From the NCBI GenBank assembly GCA_015680685.1, contig MNCI01002465.1:44739-108738 (forward strand): a stretch of 64,000 nt of DNA, read 5' to 3'. Shown here piece after piece: positions 19,251 to 64,000 of this stretch. The number at the start of each line of letters is the position of its first letter. The stretch's first letter is position 1. The notes below the pieces were generated by a model that saw only the letters and a list, made by a program, of their open reading frames with translations, did no database searches and was not told the origin of the DNA. Both the position numbers and the translations under genes were made by a program. Origin of the DNA: Gnetum montanum. Its lineage: Eukaryota; Plantae; Gnetophyta.

Positions 19251-19314
19251 TTCCTTTATATTTTACTATTGAATGTTCATGTTGAGTGCAAGAGTACCAG
19301 GTTTCAATACCACT

Positions 19315-21227
19315 TGAGGATCAAGAACTTAGAAGGGAGGGTTAAATAAGTTTCCCAAAATGAAAATTGATTAGTCTTAAAAATCACACCCAAATTTTAC
19401 ATGGTTCTCCAACTTGGGTACGTCCACACTCAGAGGGCACAATCCTTGCATACCTTTGGACTTTGTTTCTTAAAAATGTGGTTTGAAGGGTATTGATGAG
19501 TGGCGAGGTACTCCTACACTCAACCATACGAATACGAGCATAACACTTGTGATCCGGTCGAACTCCATAGACTAAGTGCCTACACGCCTCATGGAAAACT
19601 TAAGGTTAATTATTCGTTGTCTTCCCAGACTTACTTGTATTTGTCACAGTGTATGGTTAAGTAAGTTCGAGGTATATGATTTTTATATCTTTTCTGTTTT
19701 ATCTCCTATGCTAGTGAGGTGAAGGGTTGAAGAGGCTAATTGACTAACTTTAACCAACTAACTAAGCCTTAATTAAACTAGTGTCAGCATCTGTTCCCAC
19801 TTACCGTTCACACCATGAATTGATGCAACCGTGGTTACCAAACGCTAGTCATTGCTGGGATCACCACGCGTAACGCACATGCTCGAAGCGGTCGTACTGA
19901 GGCGCTTAACTAGGAGAGAAGGGTTGAGAGAGATTTAATTCCTAATAAAGCATGTAAATGATAAATAGTAAATAACGATAAATAAAATCCTAATTAGCCT
20001 ATTCCATGCACTGCAAGGTTTATCCAAGAAGTTCGTCTTTATTGCCGTACACAAACATGTGTTTAGGTACAATATTTGCTTGAATAAAGATCCGTTCACT
20101 TTGGAGTTCCTACTGCGGGCACATGGAAAATATCCTATCTCTAGAGAGGTAAAACTACCAGAGTTTCCCTAAGGGTCTAGATCTAGATGAGAAAACAAGG
20201 GATAGTTGCCTCTTATTTATAGATATGATGGCACACCGCGATATCGCGGGGGATGACGCGATATCATGGCCCATGCAATATCATGTCCCATTAGGTACCA
20301 TACCTTGTGCAAGCCTTAAGCTCCACACCATAGTATTTCATCATAGCAAAACCACTCAACCTTGCAAGGTCCTAAAAAGCTCAAAATGTGGTTTCAAGGA
20401 TCTTTCAACCTTTACAAAATTGAGCTCACTCCAAAGTATTTTGATGCTACACAAACATTCAATCCCTTAAGATCCTGATAAGCTCAATGATGATGCCTTC
20501 TTGCAAGAAGCACATCAAACCCGTAGGGCTACAAGAAAGAAAAGTAAGCATAAGGAGAGAGTGTAACTCAATTTACAAATTCCTTGTATAATGAAACCCA
20601 GTTCTACAAATAATCAAGACAATGATATGAAAAATGAAGTACATAAGTATAACAACATAGAATAGATAATGATAGCTTTGATGTTAGCAATACCTACTAT
20701 ATTCCCAAGAGTTTGAAGATTACTTATAGCTTCAAAGTTTTTGAAAACACCTTAGACTTCGTGCAATGACTATTCAATAGCTAATGTAAACATCTCCTTT
20801 GAGATTGGGGTTTTTATCTAAAATCAGCTTCAACTCTAGGGAGATGTCTCCTTTTAGAATGCGATATCTTTGGGGAGACGTCTTCTTTCCAGAGGAGACA
20901 TCTCCTATTTTTAGGAGACATCTTTGCGTGATCGACTTCCTTTTAGCTAAGACATCTTCTATTCCTTGGAGACATCTTCTCAACTTTTGATCTCTAGTTC
21001 TTAAGGCTTTCTCTTGTTGATACAACTTCCTCTCAATCCTTTGAGCATCTTCATTTAGCTTGTAGTCTTTGTATTACCTACGAAGTCTTTTACTTTGATA
21101 GCCATGCTTTCTTGAGTCCTGTTCCATGATGTGGGGTTCTTGTTCTTATCTTGTAAATACAACATCCAAGATCAACATCCTTTGTTCTTCATTTTTCTTA
21201 AGGTTTTGACATATCCAAAGGTCAATA
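19315..21227 (-). repeat. 5' LTR of Sirevirus-type element (interrupted by a solo LTR)
   Basis: Adjacent to the PBS; carries an array of GGAGAYRTCTCC palindromic motifs at about 20838-20980. Confidence 0.85.
19494..20293 (-). mobile_element. Solo LTR of the Athila-like family, nested in the Sirevirus 5' LTR
   Basis: 800 bp, reverse-complement homologue of the LTRs of elements C and D. Target duplication GGTAT/GGTAC; the empty site GGTAC is visible in the other Sirevirus LTR at about 14841. Confidence 0.92.
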
Positions 21228-25494: not shown

Positions 25495-25507
25495 ACACAC
25501 ACAGAGC

Positions 25508-25539
<32 letters not shown>

Positions 25540-25556
25540 TAGATAGATAGATAGAT
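25495..25556. repeat. Compound microsatellite (CA)n(GA)n(GATA)n
   Basis: Read directly from the sequence. Confidence 0.95.
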
Positions 25557-28039
25557 TTAATAAGCATCTCAAGTTTCTTAAAGGAAAGGAAGTAACACAT
25601 TGTATGCAACAATGCTAAAGTGCAAAAGCTTAAGAACTCTAAAGAATATTACTCATTAGAACTATAAGTTAATTGTTTTTAATTTTTAGCAAGTTAATCT
25701 TCTTAATTCTATCATGGATATTGAAGAAGGAACTAAGTTGGGTGTTGCACCCTCATCAAGTTCATCTCTTGAAATGTTCAAGGATTGTTGAACCCCTAAT
25801 GTTAAGCTAGTATTTGATATTATTATCAAAATTTTGATTTTTTATGTCTTCAAGAGGTTAAAATAGATGGTTTTAATCTGGCTTTAGTAGCTAATTTTTT
25901 ATGCTTAGAGGAAGTTACATTTTAAAAATCATGAAGTTGAAAGAGGTGATATTCTTCTTTGTATTTGATGAGCAGGAAGTAGTCGCTATGCCCAACCATA
26001 TGAATCACCAACATTTACTAAGCAATCTAGTCAAATTTTGTAGACTTTAGCTTTCTATGTACACATGGTTCAAGTAGTGAATCTTAAGGACATGATTGTT
26101 GTCTTCCTAGTTCCTCTTGTGAGGGTACGAAAGTATGGTTAAGTGTAATTGAGGTACATGATTTGTATAACTTTTACATTTTTATTTATTTCTCCTAAGC
26201 ATGAAAATAAAGTAATTCAATGCTTAATTAATAGAGAAACTATTTAATGCCTTAACTATTCCCAACATAAGCATTCATTCCTACCTACTGTACACATCTT
26301 GAACATGTCTTAATACTATTGGGTTACCAAGTATTAACATATGCTTGAGGTGGTCATACTCATGTGCATTAATTATCCATATTTAATCAATTAATTAAAT
26401 GCATGAAAGTAAATTTCATAATAGTAAAGTGCATTAAAGTAAATATTATGCTAAGTCTAAGTGCTACAAGGTTTATTAAGAAAGCTCATCTTTATTACCA
26501 TTTACACCGAAATGTCCAAGTACATCATTGCTCGAATAAAGATTTGTACACCTCTCAACTCCTACTGTGGGCACTTAGAAAATATTCTAACTCTTAAAAG
26601 AACAAATTGCAAGAGCTCCACTATGATACTAATGAATGAATGTCTTAAATGTGGTAGGTGCACACATTTAGATTGGCAAGGTTAGATACTTCATCAATGC
26701 ATATGCGTTGATGGGTACATGTTGATGCAACCATGTTGATGCAACCATGTTGATGTAGTTGATCAATGATTGATCATACCTCCACCATTAACTAAAAACT
26801 CATCCTTGAGTGAAGAAAAGAAGGAACAAGCTTCTTAGAAAATTTATGAAGTTATGGAACCATTGACTGACTGACTAATTGACTTAGATTGATGTTGAGT
26901 GCCAAAGTGTACAAATTTATAACTTTCATAAAAATAAGTGTTTATAAAAAAAATTGAATACCATTATAAAATTTAACAATTAAACCCCTTTGATGGCTGG
27001 AGACAAGAAGAAAATTAGATGGTCCTAGGAGGTGGAGGCTCTTGAGGTGCTGAAGGACCTTCTGTTACCTCTAATGCATGTAGTAGTCGCAGTTGAGGCT
27101 ATGATAGTTACGGTTGTTCTACTATAGTTGCAATTTTTTATGGAAGATAAAAAGAATTTGGAAAAGCTTTCATCTTCTCCTCCTTTGGGAATTATACATG
27201 GTCCATGTAGAATCACTGATATGGGTTGTGATGAGTTGTCATTTGGGAGACTGCGATATCGCGGCCTGTCTCCTCATCTATAAATAAGAGGTAGACAGAT
27301 CATTAGATCATTAGATCATTAGTGAGTTAGTTCTTAGTTAAGTGTTTTCATTTTTTTCTCTCAACCCTTTTCCTCCTAGTATATGCCCATAGTGTGGTGA
27401 TTGTAATTGTACGACATCCTTTATTTGAGTGTGACGTATTTGGACATGCACATGACCAGTAATAAAGATCAAGATTACTTCATCATTGCAGCATTCACTT
27501 AGTTTAATCATTTAATTAATTATTATTTACTACTTTCCTAGTTAATTTCTCTCACCCTTAAACTCATGTTAATATGCGAAATGCGTACTACTTGATTACG
27601 AGCACTTAAGTGTGACTACTTGGTAACCCAGTAGCGTACCTAGGATCTGCGCTTGGTAATCCCAGTGGTAGTTGTGCACGAAGTCCAAGGTGTGTACGGA
27701 TAATCAAGGAACAGATGCTCATTGTACTTAGGCTAGTTTAGATTCTCTCACCCTTCTCTCCTAGCTTAGTTAATATTACTTTCCATTGCCTTTAGGAGTA
27801 GCATTAGATTAGAAACCCATCATACACCTCGCTCTGGACTAAACCATACGTGACAAAGATAATACTAGTCTAGGTGGGAAGATAGTGAACTGCGACCTAA
27901 GGCTAACTNATTGCCGGGGATGGTGCTAGTTATCTAGATTAGTTATATCATACCAGGTCATTGTAAAGGACTTAACGATATATCTTTTAGAAAGAATTAT
28001 AAAAATTCACATAGAAATTCACACAAGATTTCACAACCA

Positions 28040-29990
28040 TGCCTCTCCTACAAGATGATAATAATGCCACACCTAGTGAGGAAATTCATTGGAGAACCAA
28101 TGAATTATATGACAATGAAGATTGGAGTACGCAACCCAAGGTGGGGGTTTCCTATAAACATGAACGAAGGCAACATCATCCCAACGCACGAAAGTATAAC
28201 TTATGAGATGACGATGAACCCCCACTGGCCACTACAAGCCTAATGCAAATACAAGAGGTTGTTTGAATCTCCCGTAGGCATTGTAAAGAGAGCCACCTAC
28301 CTAGGCTCAATTTAAACAACTTCCCTAATTTTTCAAGAGGCTATGACTTAGATCTGCATCAACATTTACAAGCCTTCTACGATGCCTGTACATGGAACGA
28401 CATTGATAATGGTTGGAAAAAACTCAAGCTCTTCCCTATGACACTCGTTGGCCAAGAAAAAGTATGGTATAGATCGTTAAAACCAAATTCAATACGACGT
28501 TGGCCAACAATGGTAGAACTCTTTAACGAAAGATATCAAACCTACGCAAGAGTGTCAACCTTGAGGAAACAAATCCAAGAGTGGAAACAAGCAAAACATG
28601 AACCCTTGGACATGGCCTTAGACAGATATTATGCACTGTTAAAGAACTGTCCAGGCCATGGGTTTTCCAAGGAAAGGCTAATGTACCATATCATTGATGG
28701 GCTTTGTGATGCAACAAGAGAGACCCTAGGAATGTATGCCCAAGGTCAATTATATGAACTACGAACCCATCAAGTCCAAGAGCTTGTTAAGTAAGTAGCA
28801 AAAAAAGAAGGAGAATTGGTTAGATGGGAGAGTGTTGAAAAACATCAGTAGGACCAAAATCTCAATTTAACAAAGGTCCATAATCACAAAAAGGAGAAAT
28901 CAACCAATCTCAAGGTGGAAAAAGCATCTTTGCCGGTACAACAATCATTAGAAGAAGTTGAGACAAAGATTAATAAGATGTTGGAATGGACATATAAAAA
29001 GTGTGGAGAATTCATCGATATTATTGGAGATAGAGTTTTGACAACCCAAGAAGTAGGAAAAAACATTAGACAATCGGAAAGAACGGATAAGGAAAATAGG
29101 ATCTCAACTGCCAATCATATGTATGAATGCAATGTATGCTTGTACGATCACCCCAAGGGCCAATGCCCAATATTGTTACATTTACATGAACATTGGGGAA
29201 ACACATTACATCCTGAGTTCGTACATAGATACTATGTTCGATCACAAAGGAAACAATCCCAGTCATGGGGGAGACCACCCTTATACTGGAGACACCCTTC
29301 ATATCATCTGAATCCAAATGCTTATCTTGTTCAACATCCTGTTTCCCTAGCCAGGTCAACATACTTTATCTCACCGCATTAAAATTCTCCTCAATACTAT
29401 TAGCCCATGCCTTCAACACAACCACTGCCTTATGTACCTTACACTACTCCTCAATTTCAATATTCTCATCCTTTTCCTCCTTCTACATTGCCACCAACCA
29501 TTCCTAAGGTGTCTGCACCACAAAAACAACCCACGAACGTTACTTGTGCTAATATTTCTAACAGTAGTGAAAGGCCTCCTCAACAGCCAAAGCGTCCCTT
29601 CTTTAAACATGATCGTAAGAAGGGACAACACAATTCCAAGGCCACTACATCCTCCAACTCAGCACAAGTCTCACATTGTGGTGCACCCTTTTCTTTGAAC
29701 CCAACACCTCATGTAACTCCATCATGGCCACAAAATCGCACTCCAACAATCGTATGGCCCAATGAACACAGGAATGGAGAGTGACAACCCAATACTTGCA
29801 TACCATCTAACGGTCCCAAATATTATAGTGGGTGAACTCATTATCCGGAAACTACATCATATAAATTGCCCCACTATGCTTTTTATAATCAAGTGTGTGA
29901 ACCCCAATGGGGTAAGTATGACCAAGTTCCGATATTTCCAACATGCAAGGATCCTCATCTTTCATTTATTAATCCTTGCCATGCTCAACT
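28040..29990 (+). pseudogene. gypsy gag of element A
   Basis: LKLFPMTLVGQEKVWYRSLKPNSIRRWPTMVELFNERY (Retrotrans_gag-like), knuckle CNVCLYDHPKGQC, P/Q-rich tail, in-frame stops. Confidence 0.88.
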
Positions 29991-31240: not shown

Positions 31241-31312
31241 TGTGATATTACGTATGCGATATCGTGTACGTGACGTATCGTACGCGATATCGTGTCTCAT
31301 CTACCTATAAAT
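31241..31312 (+). promoter_or_regulatory. Candidate internal promoter (GCGATATCG repeats + TATAAAT) upstream of the element A accessory ORF
   Basis: GCGATATCGTGTCTCATCTACCTATAAAT resembles the LTR promoter GCGATATCGCGGCCTGTCTCCTCATCTATAAAT. Confidence 0.55.
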
Positions 31313-31769
31313 GGATGAGCCCCCCTGCAACACTTAGCATCATTTCTTGACATTCATGTGGGGGAGTTTTTCAAATTTTTCTCTACGACGTATGAGTATG
31401 ACACCTTTGCTTTTCAACCTCTATCTCGCTCACTGGTACTCCAATTTTAATTTTATCTGAACCTGCTTGAACCCGGAGTGTTCAGCTTAGTCGTGGAGGA
31501 GGGACACCTACTGAATAGCACCTAATTTTTTTGGAATTTATCATTTATCATCACCCAAAGGACATTATTAAGGGTAATTAGTTGTAAATTGAGAATAAAA
31601 TGTGCCAAAGGACATTTTAGGTACATCGGGAGATTAAAATTGGAAACCACCTAAGTAAAATGGACTCATTATTACAATCTTTTAGGAAAGATCACATGAA
31701 AATAAATAAATAAATTAATTAAGGAAAGAAGTAAGGTATAACTTAATTTAAAAAACAACCTTACTAATG

Positions 31770-34002
31770 CTTGGCCCGTGTGATTGTAGATGGTCCCGAA
31801 ATATGGACAAAAGGAAGGTCCTACTCAAGGTGGAAGCAAATGACCCAAGAGAGGTGGAACATAAGATCTTGCTAGACAACATGCAGAACAGAGGGAGAAA
31901 TCATTTACTATTCATCAAGAAGACCCTCCTACTGTATAGTCCGGCAGGTAGAAGGAGGAACTGCTGTAGTTCTTGAACAAGGACAACATCTTACGTTGCC
32001 CCAAGATTGTGTTTAAGCCATCCATGAAAAGCCCACATTCGCTGCGGTGATTGTGGAATTGAACTTTGAATCTTTTGTAGAGTTCACTCCTGAGGCCATT
32101 AGAGATTAGCTCAAAGGGTCTCCCTTATGGCCTACCCTCTCTGAAAGCAGTGCTTGGTACCTAGGGGAGATGTACCTGTTTTGGCACAATAGAGAGCAAG
32201 GCGCAACTATCAATATTTGTGGTGTGACAGTTGATTTCTCTACATAGGCCATTTCGGAAGTGTTAAACCTTTAGAATACATGGCCAAAAGTTGCTTAGTT
32301 ATCCACCCATTCAAACCTTGATGTGCGACGAGATTGGTTGGAAAGGGTTTATGGCAGAGATAAGAAATTTGGTGAGTTGATGACGGAAGAGAGGATCTAC
32401 TTTAAATTTGGAACATATCACCTCTTCCCTATGAAGGGCTTAAAAAGAATATCAACATATGTGGAAAGAGGATGTGTAATGCTGATGGGAAAGGTTAATG
32501 CTAACCTGCCCCATCTATATTTAATGGAGATCAGCTATCCCTATAAGACTACAGACTGTCGATGAGCCATCTCAAAGCCATCACTAAGATGGTCAATTGG
32601 GGGAGTCATGATGACACAAATCTCTTCCACATCATTGATGATGCCATTCNGTTGGGGGAGTCATGATGACACACATCTCTTCCACATCATTGATGATGCC
32701 ATTCAGCCCACAATTTCTTTGGATCATACAAGGGGTGAAGTTTCAATCCATATAGGAGGAGGGGAAAGTTTCAATCCATATACAAGAGTAGCTCATGGCC
32801 CTACAAGAAGTACAACAGGATCCTTTGCAATTTTTTCCCACAGACCAGCTAGATAATTTCAGAACTGAGTAACTAACCAAGCTAATAGCGGAGAATAAAA
32901 AGGTGGCTGATGAAAAAGATAAGGCTATTTGAGATGCCTATGCAGCACAAGTGCAAACTCATGCACATATTAAGGCACCCAACACTTTACAAGAAGAAAA
33001 TAAANATGCAGCACAAGTGCAAAATCATGCACATATTAAGGCACCCAACACTTTACAAGAAGAAAATAAATAGCTTGTTATCGACAACCTTCAGTTGACC
33101 ACTGTGGAAAAGCAAAAGAATGTTCTCGAGGAACACTTTCATCAATTATGAGAACAATTCATCTGGGTCAACCAAGACATAAATCATTTAACCAGGGAGA
33201 ATAGAACCCTCTCAATAGAGGAGGTACACACAATTCGCCAAAAGATAGCTATTGAAATAAGCATGTGGCAAAATGAGGCTAAACAACATGAAAAGCTAAA
33301 GAAGCACTTCCGAGATCAGGTGGGGATGTACAAAAAGATCCTTGAGAAGGAGATCCATATGAACAAGGCCCACATCAATGCTATCGGTGCTCAACACACT
33401 AACTGGCAGGCCATATTGGACACATATGCTTTTGCCCACCAAGTGAAAGTTAAGAACCGGGACCTGTAGATTCAAGATCTGACAGAATACATGGAGTTGG
33501 CAAACCTGCGGTATGCCAACCTTGCCATGTTAATAGTAGGGTTCCTGAGGATAGAGCTTGAGTAGCAGGTAGCAACCACCTATGTTAAATATGAAGTAGA
33601 ATTTGAAGAACACAAGAAGTTGTTGGAAAAACTAGAGGTTGTAAATTCTGAACTTGAGGTGGTAAAAGCAAGCCACCAAGGCCAAAAATGTGTCACAGTG
33701 GATTTGGCTCAATATCTTGCAGATTTCTAGGAATACAAAGATAAATCTAGAGCCTACGAAGAGGAATGTTGGGTGTTTGCAGTTTGGTATGTCAAGGCCA
33801 ATCAAATGTTTCCGTAACTACCTTGTTTGTGGGAGGTGTCGACTCCGTCAAACATCGGAATATTAGCATGGACATCATAGGATCCCCAAACTGAAGAGGA
33901 GAAGCTTTAGGCCATACTCCAACACCACCAAGTCTCAAAACTTGGAGCACAAGAGAAAGGGAAAGCACTAATGGAGGAGACACCACCACCAGGAACTACA
34001 TG
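31770..34002 (+). pseudogene. env-like/coiled-coil accessory ORF of element A
   Basis: WYLGEMYLFWHNREQGATINICGVTVDFS.AISEVLNL at about 32155-32270, then a long predicted coiled coil (33100-33790). Fragmented. Confidence 0.7.
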
Positions 34003-34974
34003 AGTTCCACAATTTTGTAGTTGCAGCACATTCTTTGTGTTGTGTCTTTGTTTTGTTTTCTTCTCACACTGTGGCATAATCCCATTTTTACCATTCAATA
34101 ATCCCATACCTATCCACTATGTAATCACTGTAACTCAAGGACGAGTTTTCATTTAGTCATGGGGCTATGATGAGTCGTCACTTGGGCAACCATGATATCG
34201 CGGTCGCGATATCGCATCCATGATATCGCGGCCTATCTCCTCATCTATAAATAAGAGGTAGATAAATCATTAGATCATTAGTGAGTTAGTTCTTAGTTAA
34301 GTGTTTTCATTTCTTTCTCTCAACCCTTTTCCCTCCCAGTGTATGCCCGTAGTATGGTGATTGTAATTGTACGACATCCTTTATTCGAGTGTGACGTACT
34401 TGGACACGCACATGACCAGCAATAAAGATCGAGATTACTTCACCATTGCAGCATTCACTTAGTTTAATCATTTAATTAATTTTTATTTATTGCTTTCCTA
34501 GTTAATTTCTCTTACCCTTAAACTCATGTTAATACGCAGAATGAGTATGACTTGATTACGAGCACTTAAGTGTGACTACTTGGTAACCTAGTAGCGTACC
34601 TAGTATCTATGCTTGGTAATCCTAGTGGTAGTCGTGCATGAAGTCCAAGGTGTGTATGGATAATCAAGGAACGGATGCTCATTGCACTTAGGCTAGTTTA
34701 GATTCTCTCGCCCTTCTCTCCTAGCTTAGTTAATATTACTTTCCATTTCCTTTAGGAGTAGCATTAGATTAGAAACCCATCATACACCTCACTCTGGACT
34801 AAACCATTTGTGACAAAGATAATACTAGTCTAGGTGGGAAGACAGTGAACTGCGACCTAAGGCTAACTATCTAGATGCCACAAATAGTCTATCTGCGGAG
34901 TTCAACTGGATCACGCTTGTAATGCTCATATTCGTATGGTTGAGTGTAGGGGTACCTCGCCACTCATCAGGTTG

Positions 34975-38699: not shown

Positions 38700-40850
38700 G
38701 TTTGGAAAATAACGATGCAACAAGAAATTTAGTGGTGTTTCATCACCATTGGTTTATTCATCAAGAACCTAATTGCATTATGTTCTATGTGCACAAACAC
38801 CTTGTATCTAAGCACATAGTGCCTAAATTTCTCTAAGGCATACACCAATGCCATCAGTTCTTTCTTAGTGGTTATGTAGTTCAAATGTGCACCCACAATG
38901 TTGCTACTTGTATAGTGTATGTAATAGGAATGTTTCTAATTTTCTAGCTATGTGATCATGGCTCTTAACACATAATTGAATGTGTCTATCATAATGTGGA
39001 ATGGTCTAGACCAATTAGGTTCTTAGAGGATTAGTATTTCTATAAGCTTTTGTCAATGTGCTAGAATGCATACTCGCATTCCTTAGTCTAGAAAAGTGGA
39101 GCATCATTCTTTAGTAGCTCCACTAATAGTTTGGAAATTTTAGAGGAATTCTCAATGAAGCATTGATAATAGCCAGTGCGGCCAAAAAATGACCTCACAT
39201 CTTTAACTATCTTAGGTTGTTGGGTTATTCCTTGGATGATCCTTATCTTTTTAGGGTCCACCTCAATTCCTTTCTATCTGTGCCCCAAAACAATGCCCTC
39301 TTGGACCATTAAGTGGCTTTTCTACAAGTTGAGCTTAAGGTTTATCTCCACACATCTTTTCAATACTTGCTCAAGACGGTCTAGGGCTTGCTCAAATATA
39401 GCCCCATAGGTGGAAAAATCATCCATGAAGATTTTCACCTTGCTACTAATTTACTGTTGGAAGTTACTAAGGACAAGGTGTTGGAATGTTGTAGGGGCAT
39501 TGAATAAGCCGAATTGTATGTGAAAGTTCCCTAGGAACTTGTGAATTTGGTTTTGGCCTAATCCTCCAATGCTATCTAGATTTGGTTATAGCCACTATAA
39601 TCATCTAGAAAGCTGTAATAGTAATGCCTAGAAATTATGTCCAACACCTGGTCCACAAATGGCAAGGAAAAATATTCCTTGTATGTTGCCATGTTTAGTA
39701 GCTTGAAATTGATGTAGGCTCTTTATTTCCCACCTTTCTTTGATACTATCATGAGTGGGCTAATCCACTCACTATCTACAATGGAATAAATGTACCCTAC
39801 CTTGAGGAGTTGCTTAATATCCTTTTTGATAATTTTCTTGAGTTTAGAGTTCAATCTCTATTGCAGCTGCCTCTTTGGTTTAATGGAGGAATTTGTGTAG
39901 ATTTGATGCTGAGATATCCTTGGATCAATTTTCATCAACTCTGGATATTACCAAGCAAAGTCTATTGGCCATTTGTTGACCACCTCCAACAGGTTCTTTT
40001 GCTACATAGGGGAAAGATTGACATTAATGATGACTGGCTTCCCATTATTTAGCATATTCCATTCTAGTCAGTAGAGTTTGCAACTCAAGGGGTTCTTGTT
40101 TGAAGCTCCCAGGGATTTCCAACTCTCTCCAGTTGGTTTCATTAGGTTCATTAAAGATTTGGCAATGGACTTGGTTTAGTGTGTCCATGCCCTCAACATA
40201 GACACTTGTTAGGATATTATTTTGTTCCATGCATAATTTTGAATTACTCTATGCTTCACCTATTAGGCATTGGGTGTCCTTCTATTTTGTGGTTGTTGCA
40301 TACAAGAATCATTAAACTTCTATGATATTTGCACACTACCTGCATGCTATGAATGCTGTACTTTTGATGCTCCACAAATTTCTCATGTAGTAACACCTAT
40401 GTCACTGTACACGATGCATGGAATGCACTTCCTTTCTATTTTTCCAAAGTTTGTTTCCTTGGAAATCTATAAGGAAAGGACCCTGATTTCTAGCTATGCA
40501 TCAATTGTACTTAACCATGTCCTTCCCATGATGATAGTGAAGATTCCTTTGCAGGTATTCTCTCTGATCGCTAGGAAGTCAATAGGATATAATCACTTAT
40601 AGATGATAGTCACAATGTCCTCCACCAATCCCAAGGGAATAATGATGGATTGATTTGCTACCTCTAGAAGAATGTTGCTCTTCTTTAGAGGAGGTAGGTT
40701 CTAGGATTTGTACATATTGTATGGGATCAAAGTAATACTAGAACCTAAGTCCAGAAGAGTTTTGCAAGGTTCATTTTTAGTAATTTACAAGTAAAAGAGG
40801 GGAATCCTAGGAATTGATCTCTTCATGGGAAGATGACCAACCTTTATTTA
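38700..40850 (-). pseudogene. gypsy pol remnant (protease, RT, RNase H) of element B
   Basis: KTLLDLGSSITLIP at about 40725-40765, IFMDDFST at about 39410-39433, and NYITTKKELMALVYALEKFRHY at about 38817-38882. Confidence 0.9.
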
Positions 40851-43400: not shown

Positions 43401-44418
43401 AAGAATCTTCCTTGTGAGAAGAAGCAATGTTAGTGGTTGGAAAATAGTGTGCTTTTAGTATATTTTGTTATATTAATAATTTTAACTTTAAGTCCTTTAC
43501 AACAACAGTTAGTGATTTCACTAATGTCCTAGATAGCACACATAACTAACTAAAATCCTTGGTAATGGTGCTAATGATGAGTAGCAAGTAGTCTCTACGT
43601 CCAATCATATCAATCACCAGTGTTCACTAAGTGATCTAGTTCAATTTTGTAGACTTTAGCTTTCTACATATACATTGTCCAGGTAGTGAATCTTAAGGAT
43701 GTGATTATTGTCTTCCTAGTTCCACTTATGAGGTATGAAAGTATGGCTAATTGTAATTTACGTACATGATTTTTATAACTTTTATATTTTTATTTATTTA
43801 TCCTAAGCATGAAAATAAAGTAATTAAATGCTTAATTATTCTAGAAACTATTTAATGCCTTAACTATTCCTAACATAAGCATTCGTTCCCACCTGCTGTA
43901 CACATCTTGAACTTATCTTAATGCTATTAGGTTACCAAGCATTAACATATATGCTTGACAAGGTTGTACTCATGTGCATTAATTATCCATATTTAATCAG
44001 TTAATTAATGCATGAAAGTAAATTACATAATAGTAAGGTGCATTAAAGTAAATATTATACTAAGTCCAAGTGCTGCAAAGTTTATTAAAAAATATCATCT
44101 TTATTGTTGTTCATATCGAAGTGTCTAGTACATTAGTGCTTGAATAAAGATCTGTATACCTCTCAACTCCTATTGTGGGCACTTAGAAAATATTCTAACT
44201 CTCTAAAGAATAAACTACAAGAGCTCTACTAGGCTACTAATGAATGAATGTCTTAAATGTAGTAGGTGCAATCATTTATATAAGCAAGACTAGACACTTC
44301 GTTGACACATATGCGTCGACGCATCAAATCATGCATCAACAAGTATGTGTCGATGGGGATGCATTGATGGGTATGCGTCAATGTGATCATGTTAATGCAG
44401 CCAACCAATGATTCATCA

Positions 44419-47400: not shown

Positions 47401-48005
47401 AACTTCTTGTGTGCCATTAAAATGGAAAAAATTATAAGATAAATTAAATTTAAAGAAAATAGATAAATATCTTCTTTTTAGACTCTTTTTGACATGTTTC
47501 TAAAATATTTTTTGGGATCTTTTTAATTTTCATCTTGTTAATGGGATAATTATGCTTGACCAAATAATGTTAAAATGTTACATTTTTAATTGCAAAAGCT
47601 TAGTTGTGGTTTTCCAGAGAAAATAATTGGATATAAAGGTTTAGGAACTTATGGAAACTAGGGTATTAGCTAAAAGCACAATTTTTGCTTGGTTTTTATT
47701 ATATACAGACCTTCTTATTAGATGTCGATTATGACTTCTTGGTTTTAATAATCCAGTTCGTCCAGTTTGCTTTCATGAAGAGTCTATTAAACATGTTTTT
47801 ATTTATTATTATTTTACTCAACAAGCTTAGCAATATTATTTTTCAATTCTTAGATTTCAAAAATTCTAGAGTTTTTTTTGCCTTATGACATTGTGTAGGG
47901 ATAATAAATAATGATACTTTTGATACTTTTTGAAATATGCTTAGACTTGATGTCATTTTTTACATTTGGAAGTGTAGATGTGATGTAATTTACAATAGAC
48001 ATTCT
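44419..48005 (+). mobile_element. L1-clade LINE copy 2, 3' part (ORF2 endonuclease + RT, decayed)
   Basis: WLDYGDFNM at about 44604, SDHL at about 44911, KSP...G..YEFYKEF at about 46542, LKLDYTKAY at about 46770, LVDDI at about 47085, and FYIWKCRCDVIYN at about 47960. Confidence 0.85.
44956..45899 (-). mobile_element. Solo LTR inserted in L1 ORF2
   Basis: TG...CA termini, flanks GGCTA/TGCTA, TATA on the - strand at about 45435, and an AGAYRTCT motif array at 45510-45670. Confidence 0.8.
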
Positions 48006-48007
48006 AT

Positions 48008-51000
48008 AGTGAACGGATCTTTATTCGTGCAAATTGTACCTGAGCACACATTTGTGTATGGAAATAAAGATGAACTTTCTGATAAACCTTGTAGTGCATG
48101 GACTAAGCTAATTAGGATTTAATTAATGTTAAATGCTTAAATGCTTTCTTAGATAATAAATATCTTGCAACCCTCAACTCCTAGTTAAGTGCATTCAGTA
48201 CTACTGCTTCGAGCACGTGTGCTATACTTGGTAACCCAGTAACGAATAGCGTTTGGTAATCCTAGTAGCGTTGCACTGGTTCAGGGTGTGTACGGTAAGT
48301 GGGAATGAATACTGATGCTAAGATGATTAAAGCTTAGTTAGTGAAAGTTAGTTACTTAGTCTCTTCACCGTTTCCTCTCTTAGCATAGGCGATAAAAAGA
48401 TAAAAGTTATAAAAATCATATACCTCAGACTTACTTAACCATACAACTATGACAATACAAGTAAGTTTGGGAAGACAATGATTGATTAACCTTAAGTGTT
48501 CCATAAGGCGCATAAGAACTTAGTCCTTGGAGTTCGACTAGATCACGTGTGTAACGCTTGTATTCGTATGGTTGAGTGTAGGGGTACCTCGCCACTCATC
48601 ATTGGTGCCGTTGCTGGGGACTTAGTTGTTTGTGTGCTACGTAGAACATAGGAAATCATTTACATCATTGGAATCTAGAATGAACCCTTAGGGTTAATCA
48701 AGAGAAAAAATAACATAATGACAAATAGCACACTGAACAAGACTAAAATGTCTTCTTCTCCACACAAAAGCACTTCACTGCCTAGGACCAACACTAGAGA
48801 TAGTTGGTGGCATAACATACATAACCAAGAACCGTCAGTTCCTCAACAATTCAATGTGGTATATACTCATCATGATGATTATATACCCGACTTTACCTTT
48901 TTCTTCCATCAAGATGAAGAATTGCATAGGAGAGACATGGAGGGTAACATAGTGTTGCCTCCAAACAGAGCCGTCCCCAACATGCTCCTTCGTGCCCTTA
49001 CACAAATTGACATGTCGCAATTATATGCTGAGTACATTACATGCAATTACAATGTAAGGGACTNCAATTATATGCTGAGTACATTACATGCAATTACAAT
49101 GTAAGGGACTACCATCCCACAGAAGTGCAACATCAACGGGACTCGCGACAGGAGAGTTATCACACATCGTTGAAGGGAAAAGGACCCCATAATGCTTCAC
49201 CCATCATAAGAGAAATTAAGGGTGGTGAACCTATTTCAATAGGTTCTCCACAAAATGATGTTCCCGCTCCTAACTATAGTGAGGAGGTGGTGTATCAGAA
49301 CCTTCACTCCATGATTCAAACCCCTAGTTTTGATTCCCACAAACACCAAGTGTTCAATGAGGGAACACAAACACAAGATAAGGGTGAGCATTCTGATTGT
49401 CATCACGATCGAGGTCAAGATCACTGAAGGGAAGGTAGGAAACATCATCATGGCAATGGTTCTCCTTTCTCTTCCCCTTCATCACAACATTCACCCTCTC
49501 CTTCAACATTGGGACATAGTCATAAGGAACCTAACCATGAGGATAAGGGTAAGCAAAATGAGAAACCCGATGAGAGAGTCTAGAGTGAGGAGGAGGGCAC
49601 TCTAGGGAATGAAGGCATGAAAGAAGGGAAAGTAGGGAACCACGTAGACATCACAGACACCATGAAAGAAATGACCATGATGAACCCCTACTTGCAACCT
49701 GAAGCATGTTAGACATTACGGAGGTCGTTAGAATACTTACAAGACACCAAAAAGATAGCCGGATCAAGAGACTAGACATGAATAATATCCCACAATTTGA
49801 GGGGGGAATCAACGCTGATTCGCAGAACCACTTATAGGAATTTCACAATGCCTATGCCTTGAAGAATATTGAGAATGAGTGGAAAAAATTAAAGTTATTC
49901 CCAAGGACACTCATAAAAGAAGTGGAAAGTTGGTATCGGTCCTTAGAACTGGAAACCATTAGGAGGTGGAGTATGATGATAGAACTATTTAATGATAAAT
50001 TTTCAAATGTACTCCCGAGTGTCCAACTTATGAAAACAGATCCAAGGATGGAAGTAGGGAACTCATGAATCCTTGGATGCTACCATGGACCGATATTATG
50101 CATTGCTACATTGTTTCCTAGGCCATGGTTACGCACAATGGGATTAACTACGCCATATCGTAGATGGGCTAAGACATGAAACCAGGAGAACTCTTGGGAC
50201 ATATGCCCAAGGGAAATTATCTAAACTTAGATCTCATGAGGTTCATAGATTATTGGAGCAAGTAGCTAAGGAAGAAGGAGATCTACGTAAGAGAGAAAGC
50301 ACAGAAGAGTATAACTGTGATCCTTCCCTCTGAAAGAGGGGAGTAAGATTCTATGAGGAGGAGGATGAGTCACCACTCGAAGAGTTGGTGAGTAGGAAAA
50401 CCTTGCCACTTTAGAGTTTAACAACAAAAGTGTCGGCTAAGGTAGATCAAATGTGGGACTCCTTAGATAGTAGATTTGAAACCATTTAAAAAATCATAGA
50501 GGAGTCTAAGGAGCGAAGTAGTGACCATGATAAGAAAAAGAAGAGAGATTTGGACCATGCACGTAACAAAGGTAAGGGTAAATTAGCTATCACTGAAGAG
50601 GTTGTGGATTCAGATACAGAAAATGATGGTGGATGTGAGATCTTCCAATATGACCATCCTAAGGGATGTTGCCCAATAATCTCACATCTACAAGAGTCTG
50701 GGGTATATGCACTCAACCCAAGACTTAACAAATGGCAAGCACCCCGTCAATTACCTTATCCCCAAGGTAACCCAAGGTAGTTCCACCAACCGTTAACATA
50801 TTATCCAAGTGGAACTCCACCACAACCTATGGAGAAACACCTGTAGTGGGAATATCCACAGTCATGGAGGATGCCATCACCAAGGCAACAAACCCTTACT
50901 GGCAATCATGTCCATATGGCTACTACGTGCAGTAGCCAATCTCTCCAAGTCACTCTGTTGGTCACATGACCTTACAACATCATTTATACTTTTTCATTTC

Positions 51001-53235
51001 TTTGTGTGTTTGATTATTTTGTTTGATTCGTCACTTAATAAGTGCTCCAAAGATGGTATGAACTATATTCCATTGATTGCTAATGTTTGGTTTTTACCTT
51101 TAAGTTATGATGTTGATACTAAGGTATGGTTCNNNNNNNNNNNNNNNNNNNNNNNNNNNNAAAAAAAAACAACATAGTGAGAATTCAAAGCACACCCCTT
51201 AGATAAAATAATAATTTGGGCTACAAGCATTGGTTATGGAAGTAAAATAAATATATTCCCTCTAACTAAGGCCCTTCTTGCTTCCTTCTCTCTCCTCTTT
51301 TATTTCGTTGGAATGGTAGTGGCTCTTTGGTGAAGGCATTCTTGTTATTTCAAGTAAATGGATGGGCTGAATGTATTAATGCGAAGTCACTGAATGTGGT
51401 TTGTTTGAGCCAGATTTGGAATGGGATTTACTAAGTCACATTAACCATTAATATACAAGGGGCTGTACATCACCTTGTTCTTGAGATTCCATTCCATTCT
51501 TTTCTTTTCATCCTTCTTTTTCCATTTATCACCTCATTGCTGGTTGTATCAGTAGTCTATATCTTGGTTGATGCATTGTTTTCATTTTGGTAAATTCTTA
51601 TGGTTAAGACTTTAACTATTGCTTCCAAATGACATTTCCAGAGCCCATGGACTCTTTGAATGTGGGAATGTTAGGGCATTAAGGGCATGAGCCTGCTTTG
51701 GGGAGGACCCATTGGCATTCCTCTTTGGTGCATCAGTTAATTTCTTTCCCTTAAAAATTTTCACGATCAATTTTCATTTTGTTCATTTCCATCTCCGACA
51801 TCCATTTCATTGACATTACAGTTGTCTCTTTTTGTCCATCTTTCTTAATCCTTATCTTTTTCCATTCTCTCGCTACCGGAAGTTCACGATTAGTCATGGG
51901 GGTCTTGGTCCAATTTTTTTGATTTTCTCCTAACCCCTACACCTTGGGTAGTCATCATTAGTATATCTCCAGAATCTGCATCAGCCATATCACAACTCAG
52001 CCAATGGACCTTACATTGAGGCAAGGTATCAACTGCATTATGATTCATTTACCCTTGCTAATATGCAACTGTGTTGTGTGTGTAGATGGCAATCATACAA
52101 CAACCGATTGGATCTGGAGGAAACACTTGGAATGGATCGATGCTGAAACAACTATACAAGGAACAAGATCGATGGTGCACTTACGGATAGACAACGAAAG
52201 GCACAATCTTGGTGTTGGCAGCAACAAACTTCTTTATCTCTCTCTCTCTCTCTCTCAGTTACCAAATAAGGCTGGATGTTAAATGTACATCGTGTTCACT
52301 ATTATTGTTATGAACACTAGTTTTGCCATGTATTGTAATGATGATCCATTCACATGTCACCCCATCTACCATTAGTGTCATTCAAGTCAATAATCCCATA
52401 CCTTCCCAATATTTTGTAAGGAACTCGAGGATGAGTTTTCATTCAATCATGAGGGTTGATGGGATGTGATATCGCATAGGCCGAAATATCACGTACATGA
52501 TATAGCAGCCCGTCACTAGTTCTATAAATAAGAGGTGGCTTTCCCTTGTTTCATCATCTAGATCTAGACCCTTAGCAAAACTCTGGCAGTTTTACCATTC
52601 CAGAGATAGAATAATTTCCATGTGCCTGCAGTAGGAGTCTTAAAGTGAATGGATCTTTATTTGAGCTAATTGTACCTGAGCATACATTTGTGTATGAAAA
52701 TAAATACAAACTTTCTGATAAACCCTGCAGTGCATGGACTAAGCTAATTAGGATTTAATTAATGTTAAATGCTTAAATTCTTTCTTAGATAATTAATCTC
52801 TCACAACCCTCAACTCCTAGTTAAGTGCATTCAGTACGAATGCTTCGAGCACATGTGCTACGCTTGGTAACCCAGTAACAAATAGTGTTTGGTAATTCCA
52901 GTAGTGTTGCACTAGTTCAGGGTGTGTACGGTAAGGGAACCGATACTGATGCTAGGACGATTAAATCTTAGTTAATGAAAGTTGGTTACTTAGTCTCTTC
53001 ACCCTTTCCTCTCTTAGCATAGGTGATAAAAAGATAAAAGTTATAAAAATCATATACCTCAGACTTACTTAACCATACAACCATGACAATACAAGTAAGT
53101 ATGGAAAGACAAAAATTGATTAACCTTAAGTGTTCCATAAGGCGCGTAAGCACTTAGTCCTTAAAGTTCGACTAGATCGTGCGTGTAACGCTCGTATTCA
53201 TATGGTTGAGTGTAGGGGTACCTTGCCACTCATCA
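48008..53235 (+). mobile_element. Athila-like element C (gag only, non-autonomous; 5' LTR truncated)
   Basis: LTRs ~48008-48601 (first ~185 bp missing) and 52457-53235. tRNA-Asp PBS TGGTGCCGTTGCTGGGGA at 48603-48620. CTCGAGGATGAG..CATGAGGG precedes the 3' LTR. Confidence 0.9.
48718..50940 (+). pseudogene. gag with N-terminal extension, element C
   Basis: KNIENEWKKLKLFPRTLIKEVESWYRSLELETIRRWSMMIELFNDKF and a decayed knuckle CEIFQYDHPKGCCP. The upstream ORF 48718-49427 is conserved in element B. Confidence 0.82.
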
Positions 53236-60298: not shown

Positions 60299-62888
60299 TG
60301 TTAGAGCATTCCAAGGTAAACCCACACACATAAGTTTCATAAAAAATTGATCATTCAAATTCAAGATATTGGCAAAATTTGCTTTCACCATGACTTATGG
60401 TCTTGTCATGGTATTGCAAGTTTCCTAAACCATAAGATCACCATGACTCATGGTACTGTGGTTTTCTATAATTCATAAACCATGACTTTTGGTTCAGTTG
60501 TTGATCAAGTATCATGACTTCACCATGATTCATGATTAACTCATGGTTATCTTAGAATTATAATTGCAACTCATGATTGCCTCGAGGATTAATATTAAAA
60601 ATAAGATAAATTCATCATGACTTGTGTTGCACTCATGATCTACCACCATTACTCATGATGTACTCATGATTGACTACTGTGAATTGTGGTATTTAATAAT
60701 TTAAAATTTTGGTCATTGCTCATCACCATGACTTATGGTCCATTCATGGAATCCTTAGAAATTAAATCTATGTATTTCTATCATTACCACAACTTATGTT
60801 GTAATACCATGACTTTTGGTATTATAAACTATGATTTGTGGTTTGATCATGGTTAAATTCTGGTCAACAAAAGTCAAGAATTTTGAGAAAAAATTATTCC
60901 ATACATTCCATAAAATTAGTATTAGAGCTAGTCAATATGAGCTACAATAAGAAAATAGTCAAATGTACCATCATCTTCAATGGAATACGCTATTTTATTC
61001 TTTGGAAGGAAATGATGAAAAAAAATTTGCAAGTAAATGATATATGAGATGTAATAGAGCCTACTAAAGCCTCTATTAAAATCATTTTGAAAGAGAAAAA
61101 TAAAGACAAAGAAGATATTCTAATTCAAAAACTCTTAGAAGAAGAAAAATAAAAGAAAAAAAGGACTCACATGCTAACATGATTATAATTTTTAATGTGT
61201 TAGAAAAGATAACTGGAAGATTGTGCTCATTGAAGACTACCAAAGAAGTATATTAAAGATTATGGTTAGACTATCTTATCAACATTGAAAATTAACATAT
61301 GAAGGAACTGATATATAGAATCCAATGTAATAAATTAGAAATCATGAGGAATAAAGATATTAAAGAGCCTTCTTTTGCAAGAATGTATACTAGCATTAAA
61401 AATATTGATGAATTTGGATGTGACTTCACTCAACATTAAAAAATGCACAAATTTATAGTAGCCTTTTATAATAATTCTAGATATCAAAATATGATGATGA
61501 ATTTTCTACAAAACAAAGAATTCAAACAACTTACCATTAATGACTTAGTTGCCTAGATTAGAACATTAGAAAGTCTATGAATGGACAAACATGATAAAGA
61601 GCAAGTCTTCATAGGCATTAGAGGAAGAGAAGGATACAACAAAGGAAGAGGAAGCAGAAGATTTAATAGAAGTTATTTACAAGACCAAAGCAATTCAGAC
61701 ATGATAGAAATTCTACAAAAATAAAATAGAGGTAGAGGTTTCACAAGAGGAAGATGGAATTTACAGGAACAAAGAAATACATAAATACCTTCATGTAAAC
61801 TTTGTAACAAAAGAGGCCACATCATAGAAACATGCTAGCAAAACAATGGTCTTGAAGCTTTACAACTCCAAGACAATAATCAAGAAGAAGGCACAACATC
61901 AAATCAAGAAAAAAACCAAGGTAAGATTAAAGCTCTCAATTTTAGAAATTTAATTAAGTAAGAATTTTGGATAATAGATAGTGGATGTTCTAATAACATG
62001 ACACCATACAAGTCTTATCTTCTACAATACAAATCAAGTAAGATCAACAACATAAAAATAGGAGATAGTAAACATCTCAATATGTAAGGAGTCAGAAATT
62101 AAATTATCAAACTACTTAATGACAAAGTTATAGCCATCACTAATGTCTACTATGTACTAAATATTTTAAATCCTCTTATCTTAGTAGGATAAATGACCAA
62201 GAAAGGAATACAAAGTAGCTTAAAAAATGATTTGTGCTTCATCAAAAGCCAAAATAAAGAAGAAATAATTAGAATAGAAGCCTATAGTTATAAAATATAC
62301 AACATAGAATGTAATCAATTAAAGATGAAAGGAAACCTCATACATGACTATAACCAAGATAGTCTAGATCAGAATTTCAAAAAAGAAAAAAAAAGAAAAA
62401 AGAAAAAGAAAAAGAAAAAAAAAACTCATAAAGACCCATATTAAAGCACCTTAGAGAACCAAATAGTAAATGAAGAAGAAGCTAAAATTTGAGAAAAAAA
62501 TTGAGGCATACCTCATACAAAAATTTGGAGAAAATGTCAAAACTGAAAAAGTAATAGGAATTTCAATCAAAAGATACTTCCAAAGAAAAATGTGAGATTT
62601 GCATTCAAGAAAAACAGATCATCAATCCTAATACTACTACTATGCAAAGAAAAAAAAAGAAAAAAAAAAACAAAAAATGTTAAAGAAACAAATGAAAACT
62701 CTCTTGATCTTCTTCACATGGATCTCATTGGACAAATATCTATCACCTTAATAGGAGGAGCTAATTATACTCTTGTCATGGTAGGTGGTTATTCAAAAAA
62801 TACTTGAACATACAACATGAAAATAAGCATGAGGTAATAATCAAATTCAAAGACATCTACACCATTATGAAAAATACAATGGACCTAT
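60299..62888 (+). mobile_element. Decayed Ty1/copia element F (5' LTR, PBS, gag-PR-INT start), interrupted on the right
   Basis: Candidate LTR TGTTAG at 60299 to about 60912 with a CATGA array. PBS-like TAGTATTAGAGC at 60917-60928. CKLCNKRGHIIETC at 61794, WIIDSGCSNNMT at 61968, and LDLLHMDLIGQI at about 62703. Confidence 0.85.
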
Positions 62889-62949
62889 TGAGAAAGTCAA
62901 AATTTCATCTATTGTGATATCGTATGTACAATATCATAGCAATGGTGTT

Positions 62950-64000
62950 TGATGAGACGCAACCTGCATGTGTCGCGATTTCGTGTCTTCCCCTGCGATA
63001 TCGCGTACGTGATATCGCGGTCCGCCGCCATATCTATAAATAAGAGGCGACACTCCCTTCATTTCCCAATCCTGGCTAGAAGTAGCAAAGCTCTGGTAGA
63101 TTGATCACTCCAGAGTTAGAATTTTTCCCATGTGCCCGCAGTAGGAGTCCTAGAGTGAACGACTCTTTATTCGAGCAGCTTGTAACCTGAACCCAAGTTG
63201 TGTACAGCAATAAAGACGAATTTGATTGGATAAGCCTTGCAGTACATGGTTTTATTGTTGTTTATTTACTACTTTCCTAGTGCACACAAGTACGACTTGA
63301 TTACGAGCATTGGTTGCTTGGTAACCTAGTAGCATATTCCAGGATTCTGCGCTTGGTAATCCCAGTGGTAGTCCAATGTGTACGGCTAGTCAAGGAATCG
63401 GCTACTCATTGCTAGGCTAGAATGTGTGATAAGTACGACGTAGTTATGAGCACCCATGGGTGTGTACGGCTAGCTAAGGAATCGGCTGCTTATCACACTT
63501 AGGCTAAATAGGTGCCTCAGTACGACCACTTTGAGCACTTGGGTTATGTGTGGTGATCCCAGTAATGATTAGCGTTTGGTAAGCCACAGTTGCATAGTTC
63601 AGGGTGTGTCCGGTAAGTGGGAACGGATGCTGACGCTAGTTAATTTAGACTTAGGACATTAGTTAGAGTTAGTTAGTTTCTCAACCCTTTCCCCTGATAG
63701 CATAGAAGATAAACCGAAAAATACCAAAAAAAAATCACATACCTCAGACTTGCTTAACCATACACCGTGACACTTACAAGCAAGCGTGGGAAGACAACGA
63801 ACGATTAACCCCAAGTGTTTCTTGTGGTGTTAAGGCATTTAGTCTGCGGAGTTCGACCGGATCGCGCGTGCATGCTCGTATTCGTATGGTTGAGTGTAGG
63901 GGTACCTTGCCACTCATCATTGGCGCCGTCGCTGGGGACTAAGTGTTTTCATGCCAATTAAACATAAGGGATATCACTCACATCGTTGTGAGCTTAAAAC
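62950..64000 (+). mobile_element. Athila-like element D: 5' LTR (62950-63919) and PBS; continues beyond the window
   Basis: TGATGAG...CTCATCA termini, tRNA-Asp PBS TGGCGCCGTCGCTGGGGA at 63921-63938, and many intact CG dinucleotides suggesting a young copy. Confidence 0.92.
63161..63637 (+). other. Array of conserved structured-RNA modules in LTR D (R/U5 region)
   Basis: Four related rod-like modules start at about 63161, 63289, 63424 and 63513. Their stems covary across the LTR copies in the window. Confidence 0.7.

What the first reader, a model, noticed from the sequence alone, without database searches (positions are those of the whole stretch)
63289..63637. Conserved, covarying RNA module in every Athila-like LTR of the window
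Seen: downstream of the TATA box each LTR carries P1-[YGAC]-P2-[YGAG]-P3...P3'-[UGUACGG-N]-P2'-[GGAA(U)CGG]-P1'. The loops are nearly invariant, while the stems change sequence but keep pairing. P2 = UUGAUUA/UAAUCAA (A, 34552/34661), UUGAUUA/UAGUCAA (D1), UAGUUA/UAGCUA (D2), CACUU/AAGUG (D3), CGCUU/AAGUG (solo 19494), UGCUU/AAGUG (C), and CACCU/AGGUR (B, - strand, ~26270-26375 and ~43875-43980). P1 = AAUGAGUAU/AUGCUCAUU (A), GUGUGAUAAGUA/UGCUUAUCACAC (D2), and UCAGUA/URCUGA (C, D3). Both internal loops look like versions of one motif (CGA opposite GWACGG). Inference: this is a selected RNA structure in the retroelement 5' leader, such as a packaging, dimerisation, export or protein-binding element, or an unrecognised catalytic RNA. 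I do not recognise it as a described family. It is retained by the pol-less copies, as a cis-acting signal should be.
Basis: partly seen in the sequence, partly recalled or inferred. Interest (0 to 1): 0.9.

Follow-up and report, generated by a model that had tools for sequence, protein, structure and literature searches.

The report
Repeated RNA loop in plant retrotransposons
All eight long terminal repeats of an Athila-like plant jumping-gene group in this window carry four to eight copies of one small internal-loop motif, set in stems of differing sequence around and behind the poly(A) signal, likely as docking sites for a protein that handles the element's RNA; no catalogued RNA family matched it.

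Summary
Real, and larger than reported. All 8 Athila-like LTRs hold the module (10 copies). Its unit is one internal loop, CGA opposite GWACGGH: 36 instances, 44 of 51 deviations being C>T/G>A decay. Two per LTR lie in a missed upstream hairpin whose stem contains AAUAAA, one in reversed orientation. RNA reads carry poly(A) at 63230/63233, so that hairpin is in R and the reported modules are in U5, 5' leader only; other transcribed copies cap P3 with C(UACG)G and repeat modules in tandem. Stems pair 155/162 versus 0.907 shuffled, but only about six lineages contribute, 6 of 10 compensatory columns are transitions that decay can mimic, and single-copy folding z-scores are flat. No Rfam match; not in prokaryote, viral or metagenome scans; other plants untested. 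Best reading (0.6): a multivalent protein-binding array for packaging or export, possibly coupled to poly(A)-site choice; ribozyme unlikely (0.04). The scan noted other LTR U5 structures elsewhere, not this motif.

The parts
62950..63919 (+). LTR D (5' LTR of an element running off the window); start inferred, end at CTCATCA
   Evidence: reads break off at 63919 (table 7)
63035..63041 (+). TATA box; 174-178 nt upstream of AATAAA in the four LTRs measured
63151..63225 (+). Upstream (R-region) hairpin: two alpha loops (first inverted: long strand 63157-63163, short 63217-63219; second: short 63172-63174, long 63202-63208) bracketing a stem that contains AATAAA (63209-63214); predicted
63230..63233 (+). 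Poly(A) addition sites of this LTR family; end of R
   Evidence: A-tails behind 63233 (151 reads X21, 201 reads X22) and 63230 (126 reads X22), downstream DNA not A-rich; reads come from many copies
63287..63408 (+). Module D1: P1, alpha loop, 8-bp P2, alpha loop, P3, two beta strands (63319-63330, 63354-63366)
63424..63498 (+). Module D2: 12-bp P1, two alpha loops, short capped P3
63517..63633 (+). Module D3: 6-bp P2 class, beta strand at 63551
63921..63938 (+). Primer-binding site (tRNA-Asp type by recall)
19784..19900 (-). Module in solo LTR S19
20027..20103 (-). AATAAA hairpin with two alpha loops, S19
26268..26362 (-). Module in 3' LTR of element B (one beta strand caps the stem)
26480..26555 (-). 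AATAAA hairpin, B 3' LTR
27403..27478 (+). AATAAA hairpin, A 5' LTR
27582..27721 (+). Module in A 5' LTR
28267..28791 (+). gag fragment of pol-less element A (Retrotrans_gag PF03732, E 6.8e-14)
31600..32700 (+). Broken extra ORF of A, weak Transposase_32 (PF20167) match, E 0.002, below cut-off
34363..34438 (+). AATAAA hairpin, A 3' LTR
34542..34681 (+). Module in A 3' LTR
38732..39900 (-). Broken RT and RNase H of element B (RVT_1 E 2.8e-8; RT_RNaseH E 6e-13)
43876..43972 (-). Module in B 5' LTR; P2 partly broken
44089..44163 (-). AATAAA hairpin, B 5' LTR (most decayed)
48005..48079 (+). AATAAA hairpin, C 5' LTR (LTR truncated upstream)
48195..48315 (+). Module in C 5' LTR; PBS at 48603-48620
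52641..52715 (+). AATAAA hairpin, C 3' LTR
52831..52949 (+). Module in C 3' LTR; 2-nt deletion in P2'

Best explanation
The R-U5 part of these Athila-like LTRs carries four to eight copies of one motif (CGA opposite GWACGGH), predicted to form the same internal loop in otherwise unrelated RNA stems, which likely act together as binding sites for one protein that selects the element's RNA for packaging or export. Shown: the motif, its repetition, its place in transcribed sense RNA and the poly(A) site. Inferred: a 2-bp CG/CG core with a purine-rich bulge on each side; the protein (Gag, an extra-ORF protein, or a host factor, in that order of my guess); that tandem modules in U5 add avidity at the 5' end only; and that the two loops bracketing AAUAAA let the same protein influence whether the 5' LTR poly(A) signal is used.
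For: Same loop in four helical contexts per LTR, one inverted, with different closing pairs (A-U, U-A; C-G, G.U, A-U) and a seventh long-strand position that varies among A 17, C 12, U 7, never G. Stems: 155 of 162 pairs canonical in the modules, 111 of 120 in the AAUAAA hairpins; 0 of 5000 column shuffles reach either, at most 8 and 16 of 1500 with one copy per family. Four transversion-type swaps that decay cannot make (M.P1.5 with three pair types, U.P0.2, U.P0.5, U.P3.4) and a switch between 8-bp and 6-bp P2 on both arms. G.U closing pair in 18 of 18, A.C only 3 of 162: sense RNA, not DNA. Transcribed copies replace the P3 interior with a C(UACG)G tetraloop on two different stems and repeat modules in tandem, so the P3 interior is dispensable and loop number varies (tables 5, 5c). 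Poly(A) at 63230/63233 puts the modules in U5. Kept by gag-only A and C. Precedents: Gag binds purine-rich internal loops and bulges in retroviral leaders (PMC13736810, passages); Rev assembles in several copies on the RRE (PMC4488727, abstract), whose stem IIB has C49-G70 and G50-C69 pairs between a bulged A68 and G71/flipped U72, the same local letters as the 3' part of this loop (PMC6649712, passages).
Against: No binding, probing or genetic data. Single-copy folding is unremarkable: z from -1.83 to +1.3 in 18 segments and -0.54 for the whole finding; the proposed pairs have mean probability 0.01-0.04 in D1 and S19, 0.28-0.83 in the others. Only about six lineages; 6 of 10 compensatory columns are double transitions, and one such change separates the two LTRs of element B, so decay alone can produce it; 3 of the 4 transversion swaps separate family A from the rest. 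Stem limits were set by eye on these same copies. RNAalifold on the MAFFT alignments recovered only part of the structure (14 pairs; covariation term 0.1). P2 is broken in B2 and C2. No copy outside this plant group was found.
Confidence: 0.6

Rival explanations
1. RNA-only architecture: the alpha loops and the beta strands are tertiary docking or dimerisation modules that fold or pair the leader (kissing or receptor contacts), with no dedicated protein partner.
For: A second motif (UGGURA(U)YCYARY, 14 strict matches, all in modules, Markov mean 0.4) sits once as a stem cap in B and twice in two-fold arrangement in A, C and D1; its GGUAACC core is an interrupted palindrome.
Against: Beta is absent from D2 and from the tetraloop-capped transcribed copies while alpha stays; no conserved complementarity between alpha and beta was seen by eye.
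Confidence: 0.17
2. Neutral relic: an old inverted-repeat duplication inside the LTR, copied in tandem, whose apparent covariation comes from shared descent and methylation decay.
For: Flat folding z-scores; 142 of 192 differences between paired LTRs are transitions; a double transition between B's own LTRs; few lineages.
Confidence: 0.1
3. Translation control: the modules help ribosomes enter or shunt across a long leader full of upstream AUGs.
For: 11 ATG in the 851 nt of D's R-U5-PBS, 19 in the 949 nt before A's gag; stable stems in a 5' leader.
Against: The same loop brackets AAUAAA in R, where a translation role is not needed; the ATG counts come from decayed copies.
Confidence: 0.07
4. 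An unrecognised self-cleaving ribozyme, as hammerheads are in retrozyme LTRs.
For: Conserved purine-rich loops with variable stems; precedent of ribozymes in plant LTRs (PMC4918200, abstract).
Against: No Rfam ribozyme at E up to 10 on two LTRs or E up to 1 on the window; no hammerhead core in 8 of 8 LTRs; no place where many molecules begin or end within the modules in the raw-read runs laid (table 6; library chemistry may hide such ends); cleavage in U5 would cut the cap from the genomic RNA; modular reuse and inversion fit a binding site better.
Confidence: 0.04

Closest known systems
HIV-1 Rev response element (stem IIB) and retroviral RNA transport elements (CTE)
   Same: Retroelement cis-RNA with purine-rich internal loops on extended stems and multi-copy protein assembly (PMC4488727 abstract). 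Local likeness: two C-G/G-C pairs between a bulged A and a G plus a variable, probably flipped base (PMC6649712 passages).
   Different: No Rfam match; the pair outside the core is Watson-Crick here, not G.G and G.A; located in R-U5, not env; identical loops repeated 4-8 times; partner unknown.
Retroviral packaging signals (Psi) with purine-rich internal loops
   Same: 5' leader position; purine-rich loops; kept by non-autonomous gag-only copies.
   Different: Lies wholly upstream of the PBS in an expanded U5 (about 690 nt in D) and expands by tandem duplication; no sequence likeness tested or seen.
HIV-1 polyA hairpin
   Same: AAUAAA inside a hairpin in R, present at both RNA ends (PMC2645353 abstract); cleavage just past the hairpin base.
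   Different: Here AAUAAA is in a stem flanked by two copies of the alpha loop; repression at the 5' LTR is untested.
Retrozymes (hammerhead-bearing plant LTR elements)
   Same: Conserved structured RNA inside plant LTRs of non-autonomous elements.
   Different: No hammerhead; LTRs about 0.8-1 kb; interiors encode gag.
Athila clade (Ty3/gypsy, non-chromovirus OTA)
   Same: Host element type: gag, RT, RNase H, extra ORF, non-Met PBS.
   Different: No paper seen describes this LTR motif; RT only 43-55% identical to angiosperm relatives, none named Athila.

Membership tests
Athila clade | Ty3/gypsy polyprotein (GAG, PROT, RT, RH, INT) | tested here: inconclusive
   gag in A, RT and RH in B; no integrase found in the ORFs scanned
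Athila clade | RT phylogeny with named Athila references | not tested
   35 relatives at 43-55% identity, none labelled by lineage; no tree built
Athila clade | No extra RNase H (aRH), unlike Tat (PMC6317226) | tested here: inconclusive
   One RH seen, but B's pol is broken and ends after it
Athila clade | PBS for a non-Met tRNA (PMC6317226 section 13) | tested here: inconclusive
   PBS at 63921 and 48603; its tRNA-Asp identity is recalled, not from a call
Athila clade | Extra ORF; PF03078 in 16% of Athila elements | tested here: inconclusive
   Weak PF20167 in A; PF03078 not seen
Retrozymes | Hammerhead ribozyme in each LTR | tested here: not met
Retrozymes | Short non-coding interior | tested here: not met
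   A is about 6 kb inside with gag; B has RT/RH
Any Rfam 15 family (incl. ribozymes, RRE) | Covariance-model match over the modules | tested here: not met
   3 weak hits elsewhere at E<=1; 2 at E 5.8 and 8.8 outside the modules; 0
RRE-like export element | Purine-purine pairs next to the CG core | tested here: not met
   the flanking pair is A-U or U-A
RRE-like export element | Cognate element-encoded export protein | not testable with these tools
   extra ORFs exist; a Rev-like role was only suggested, for antisense ORFs (PMC7264820 passages)
Poly(A) hairpin | AAUAAA within a hairpin in R, with cleavage nearby | tested here: met
   6 of 6 signal positions paired in 8 of 8 LTRs (predicted pairing); tails at 63230/63233
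Poly(A) hairpin | Represses 5' LTR polyadenylation | not testable with these tools
   needs a reporter
Packaging signal (Psi) | Specific Gag binding and need for encapsidation | not testable with these tools
   no binding tool for RNA-protein

The most novel reading that the evidence does not exclude
A Rev/RRE-like switch in a plant retrotransposon: one element-encoded protein binds the same new RNA loop around AAUAAA and along U5, at once shutting the 5' poly(A) signal and marking full-length RNA for export and packaging, while gag-only families compete for it by duplicating the loop in tandem.
Probability: 0.17. Interest if true: 0.85.

Novelty: new variant of a known kind. Interest (0 to 1): 0.58.

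Why it matters
How plant LTR retrotransposons choose their own RNA for packaging or export, and how they avoid stopping at the 5' poly(A) signal, is little studied; nine literature searches showed no described leader structure for Athila. A 10-nt loop reused four to eight times gives a small, directly testable target (probing, pull-down, reporter) and may be a new recurrent RNA motif. Its tandem expansion offers a handle on how non-autonomous copies compete for particles.

Tried and rejected
No assembly is held for the window, so no genome-wide alignment. Pattern scans: viral contigs 0, 0, 8; metagenomes 120 returned of about 330 estimated; none of these 128 loci resembles the window or has the left arm with a fully pairing P2 and CGAG (4 of 128 reached 0.6 pairing by chance). 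Prokaryote genomes: 8 hits, none with matching, fully paired P2. Gag and RT found no loci in viral contigs. Gag homologues: 0 at near length, 1 longer, unnamed, 63%. A read lay of module D2 on DNA runs of several species gave no result, so whether the tetraloop-capped forms stand in DNA and whether variants at paired sites travel together stays open. A k-turn register was rejected by eye (the helix beyond it does not pair). A sarcin-ricin-loop register (likeness recalled) was rejected because P1 position 5 covaries in the other register. 137 X21 reads with a 17-nt foreign leader at 63408 (table 7) were not taken as a cleavage site: absent from table 6, and the leader looks like a template-switch adapter whose end resembles the following genomic bases (recalled). 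The joints that skip the P3 interior are other copies, not splicing (letters lie between the sides, table 5c). The REXdb element sequences (PMC6317226 additional files 1 and 3) were too large to read; they may hold Athila LTRs that would test generality.

Full report
Setting. The window is plant DNA (34.6% G+C) packed with nested, decayed LTR retrotransposons. Eight related LTRs are present: solo S19 (minus), the pair of element B (minus; 86.5% alike), the pair of A nested in B (94.0%), the pair of C (91.1%) and the 5' LTR D. A carries gag (PF03732) and a weak extra-ORF match; B carries broken RT and RNase H; B's RT/RH region hits only itself, so A and C are pol-less. RT relatives are angiosperm gypsy polyproteins at 43-55% (35 hits), none labelled; 'Athila-like' rests on domain content, a non-Met primer-binding site (tRNA-Asp recalled) and the scheme in PMC6317226 (passages and section 13 read), not on a tree.

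Observation. Ten modules exist, three in D and one in each other LTR; a model built on them finds these 10 and no further copy. A scan for the loop pair flanked by helices gave 14 hits, all in LTRs on the sense strand, against 0-1 in 10 shuffles (pattern derived from these copies).

The real unit. Both loops are one motif, alpha: CGA opposite GWACGGH. Over 36 instances, 51 of 324 positions deviate and 44 of these are C>T or G>A; the last position is A 17, C 12, U 7, never G. Paired LTRs differ mostly by transitions too (142 of 192), so this says the loops were nearly fixed in the active ancestors and decayed after insertion. Folding often pairs CG with CG across the loop, giving a 2-bp core with a bulge on each side (inferred). 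A second motif, beta, has 14 strict matches, all inside modules (Markov mean 0.4): it caps a stem in B and stands twice around an inner stem in A, C and D1.

Covariation. With pairs defined by coordinates, 155 of 162 module pairs and 111 of 120 hairpin pairs are canonical; shuffling 3' letters within columns gives 0.907 and 0.847, and 0 of 5000 shuffles reach the observed values; with one copy per family at most 8 and 16 of 1500 do (C2's P2 left out for unequal length; the hairpin count uses 15 columns). Ten columns show two or more Watson-Crick types. Four are transversion swaps (M.P1.5 with A-U, C-G and G-C; U.P0.2, U.P0.5, U.P3.4, the last three separating family A from the rest); six are double transitions. 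That caveat is real: B's two LTRs differ by G-C versus A-U in one stem, which decay can make without selection. P2 comes in an 8-bp and a 6-bp class with both arms changed. The pair closing P3 is G.U in 18 of 18 and A.C occurs in 3 of 162 pairs, which favours sense-strand RNA. Against: folding z-scores of 18 single segments lie between -1.83 and +1.3, the whole finding scores -0.54 (reverse strand +0.91), the proposed fold is 0-4.7 kcal/mol above the minimum in nine modules and 8.0 in B2, with pair probabilities near zero in D1 and S19, and RNAalifold on plain alignments recovers only part. Stem limits were chosen on these copies, and about six lineages contribute.

RNA reads. Four of the 24 runs listed were laid on 62800-64000 at 85% likeness (three raw-read runs in one or two studies under the best holder's species label, one contig run that may be DNA); reads come from many copies, not this locus alone. 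A-tails follow 63233 (151 and 201 reads) and 63230 (126 reads), 16-19 nt after AATAAA and just past the hairpin base, where the DNA is not A-rich. So the hairpin is in R and the reported modules are in U5, present only at the 5' end of a full-length RNA. In the two stranded runs the modules are read mostly from the same strand as R (for example 230-303 against 26-41 at 63415-63537 in X21). Other copies replace the P3 interior by a C(UACG)G tetraloop on two different stems (joints 63308-63378 and 63310-63376, table 5c), and joints going back 115-121 nt show tandem modules. Where D has UGA in a loop or a mismatch in D2's P2, most reads from other copies show the motif or a paired base (table 3, best 40 of 304 rows shown). 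No start or end pile-up is listed inside the modules (table 6; only 63073, 7 molecules, near the expected start). Whether these variant forms stand in DNA was not established.

Reach. No Rfam family matches the modules. Scans of viral, metagenome and prokaryote collections gave only chance hits; these collections hold little plant DNA, so other plants are untested. Nine literature searches (listings and abstracts' starts) showed no description of such a motif; the LTR survey PMC3601003 does not mention Athila (passages), PMC4963935 treats only LTR ends (passages), and 10.1101/2024.04.02.587720 folds only a frameshift site (passages). Subscription papers and unread supplements were not covered. 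The scan's own index has no look-alike, only other U5 structures in other genomes.

Mechanism. Reuse of one loop in four unrelated helices, in both orientations and in variable number, with a dispensable cap, is how a modular binding site behaves, not a catalytic core. I therefore favour a multivalent protein-binding array (0.6). Gag binds purine-rich internal loops in retroviral leaders (PMC13736810, passages); Rev assembles in several copies on the RRE (PMC4488727, abstract), and RRE stem IIB has the same CG/CG core between a bulged A and a G plus flipped base (PMC6649712, passages), though its flanking purine-purine pairs are absent here; Rev-like roles were suggested, untested, for antisense extra ORFs of plant elements (PMC7264820, passages); CTEs are the host-protein version (PMC11379458, passages). 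HIV-1 represses its 5' poly(A) signal with a hairpin (PMC2645353, abstract); here the signal is bracketed by two alpha loops, so binding could couple RNA selection to poly(A) choice (inferred). Rivals: RNA-only folding or dimerisation 0.17, neutral relic 0.10, translation control 0.07, ribozyme 0.04 (retrozyme precedent PMC4918200, abstract; no hammerhead core in 8 of 8 LTRs).

Verdict. A real, apparently undescribed RNA motif in the R-U5 region of Athila-like LTRs; a new variant of a known kind (retroelement leader signals). Interest 0.58; it would be 0.85 if it proves to be a Rev/RRE-like switch (probability 0.17).

Noticed in passing
window 62995-63018, 20229-20247, 27253-27262, 34206-34215, 52466-52475: Palindromic GCGATATCGC-type repeats just upstream of the TATA box in U3 of D, S19, A and C; likely promoter elements.
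   Followed up: no
window 31256-31311: Two more such palindromes followed by a TATA box inside element A, upstream of the extra ORF: a possible internal promoter.
   Followed up: no
window 63886-63925: Conserved LTR end folds as a hairpin directly before the primer-binding site, like retroviral U5-IR.
   Followed up: no
window 28852-29379; protein P0001: A's Gag has one C-x2-C-x3-H-x4-C knuckle; the only Gag relative found has an arginine-rich, serine-rich N-terminus, a candidate RNA-binding segment.
   Followed up: partly
window 5532-7458: Exons of a host nucleotidyltransferase (PF22600, E 5.2e-12 and 3.9e-5).
   Followed up: no
window 14660-21225: A separate copia-like element (weak gag_2 at 18759-19013, Transposase_32 at 16476-17111, minus) whose LTR is split by solo LTR S19; it lacks the motif.
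   Followed up: partly
window 17083-17204 and 30089-30226: Long AT-rich inverted repeats with weak, below-threshold miRNA matches.
   Followed up: no
window 11010-12313: 334-aa ORF with no Pfam match, beginning in a 72-bp tandem repeat.
   Followed up: no
window 21621-22808 and 24788-25965; 56383-56936: A 1.2-kb inverted pair at 70% identity, and a tandem array of about 174-bp period.
   Followed up: no
window 63304 with 63464: D1's left arm can also pair with D2's right arm around an intact alpha loop, so tandem modules may have alternative registers.
   Followed up: no
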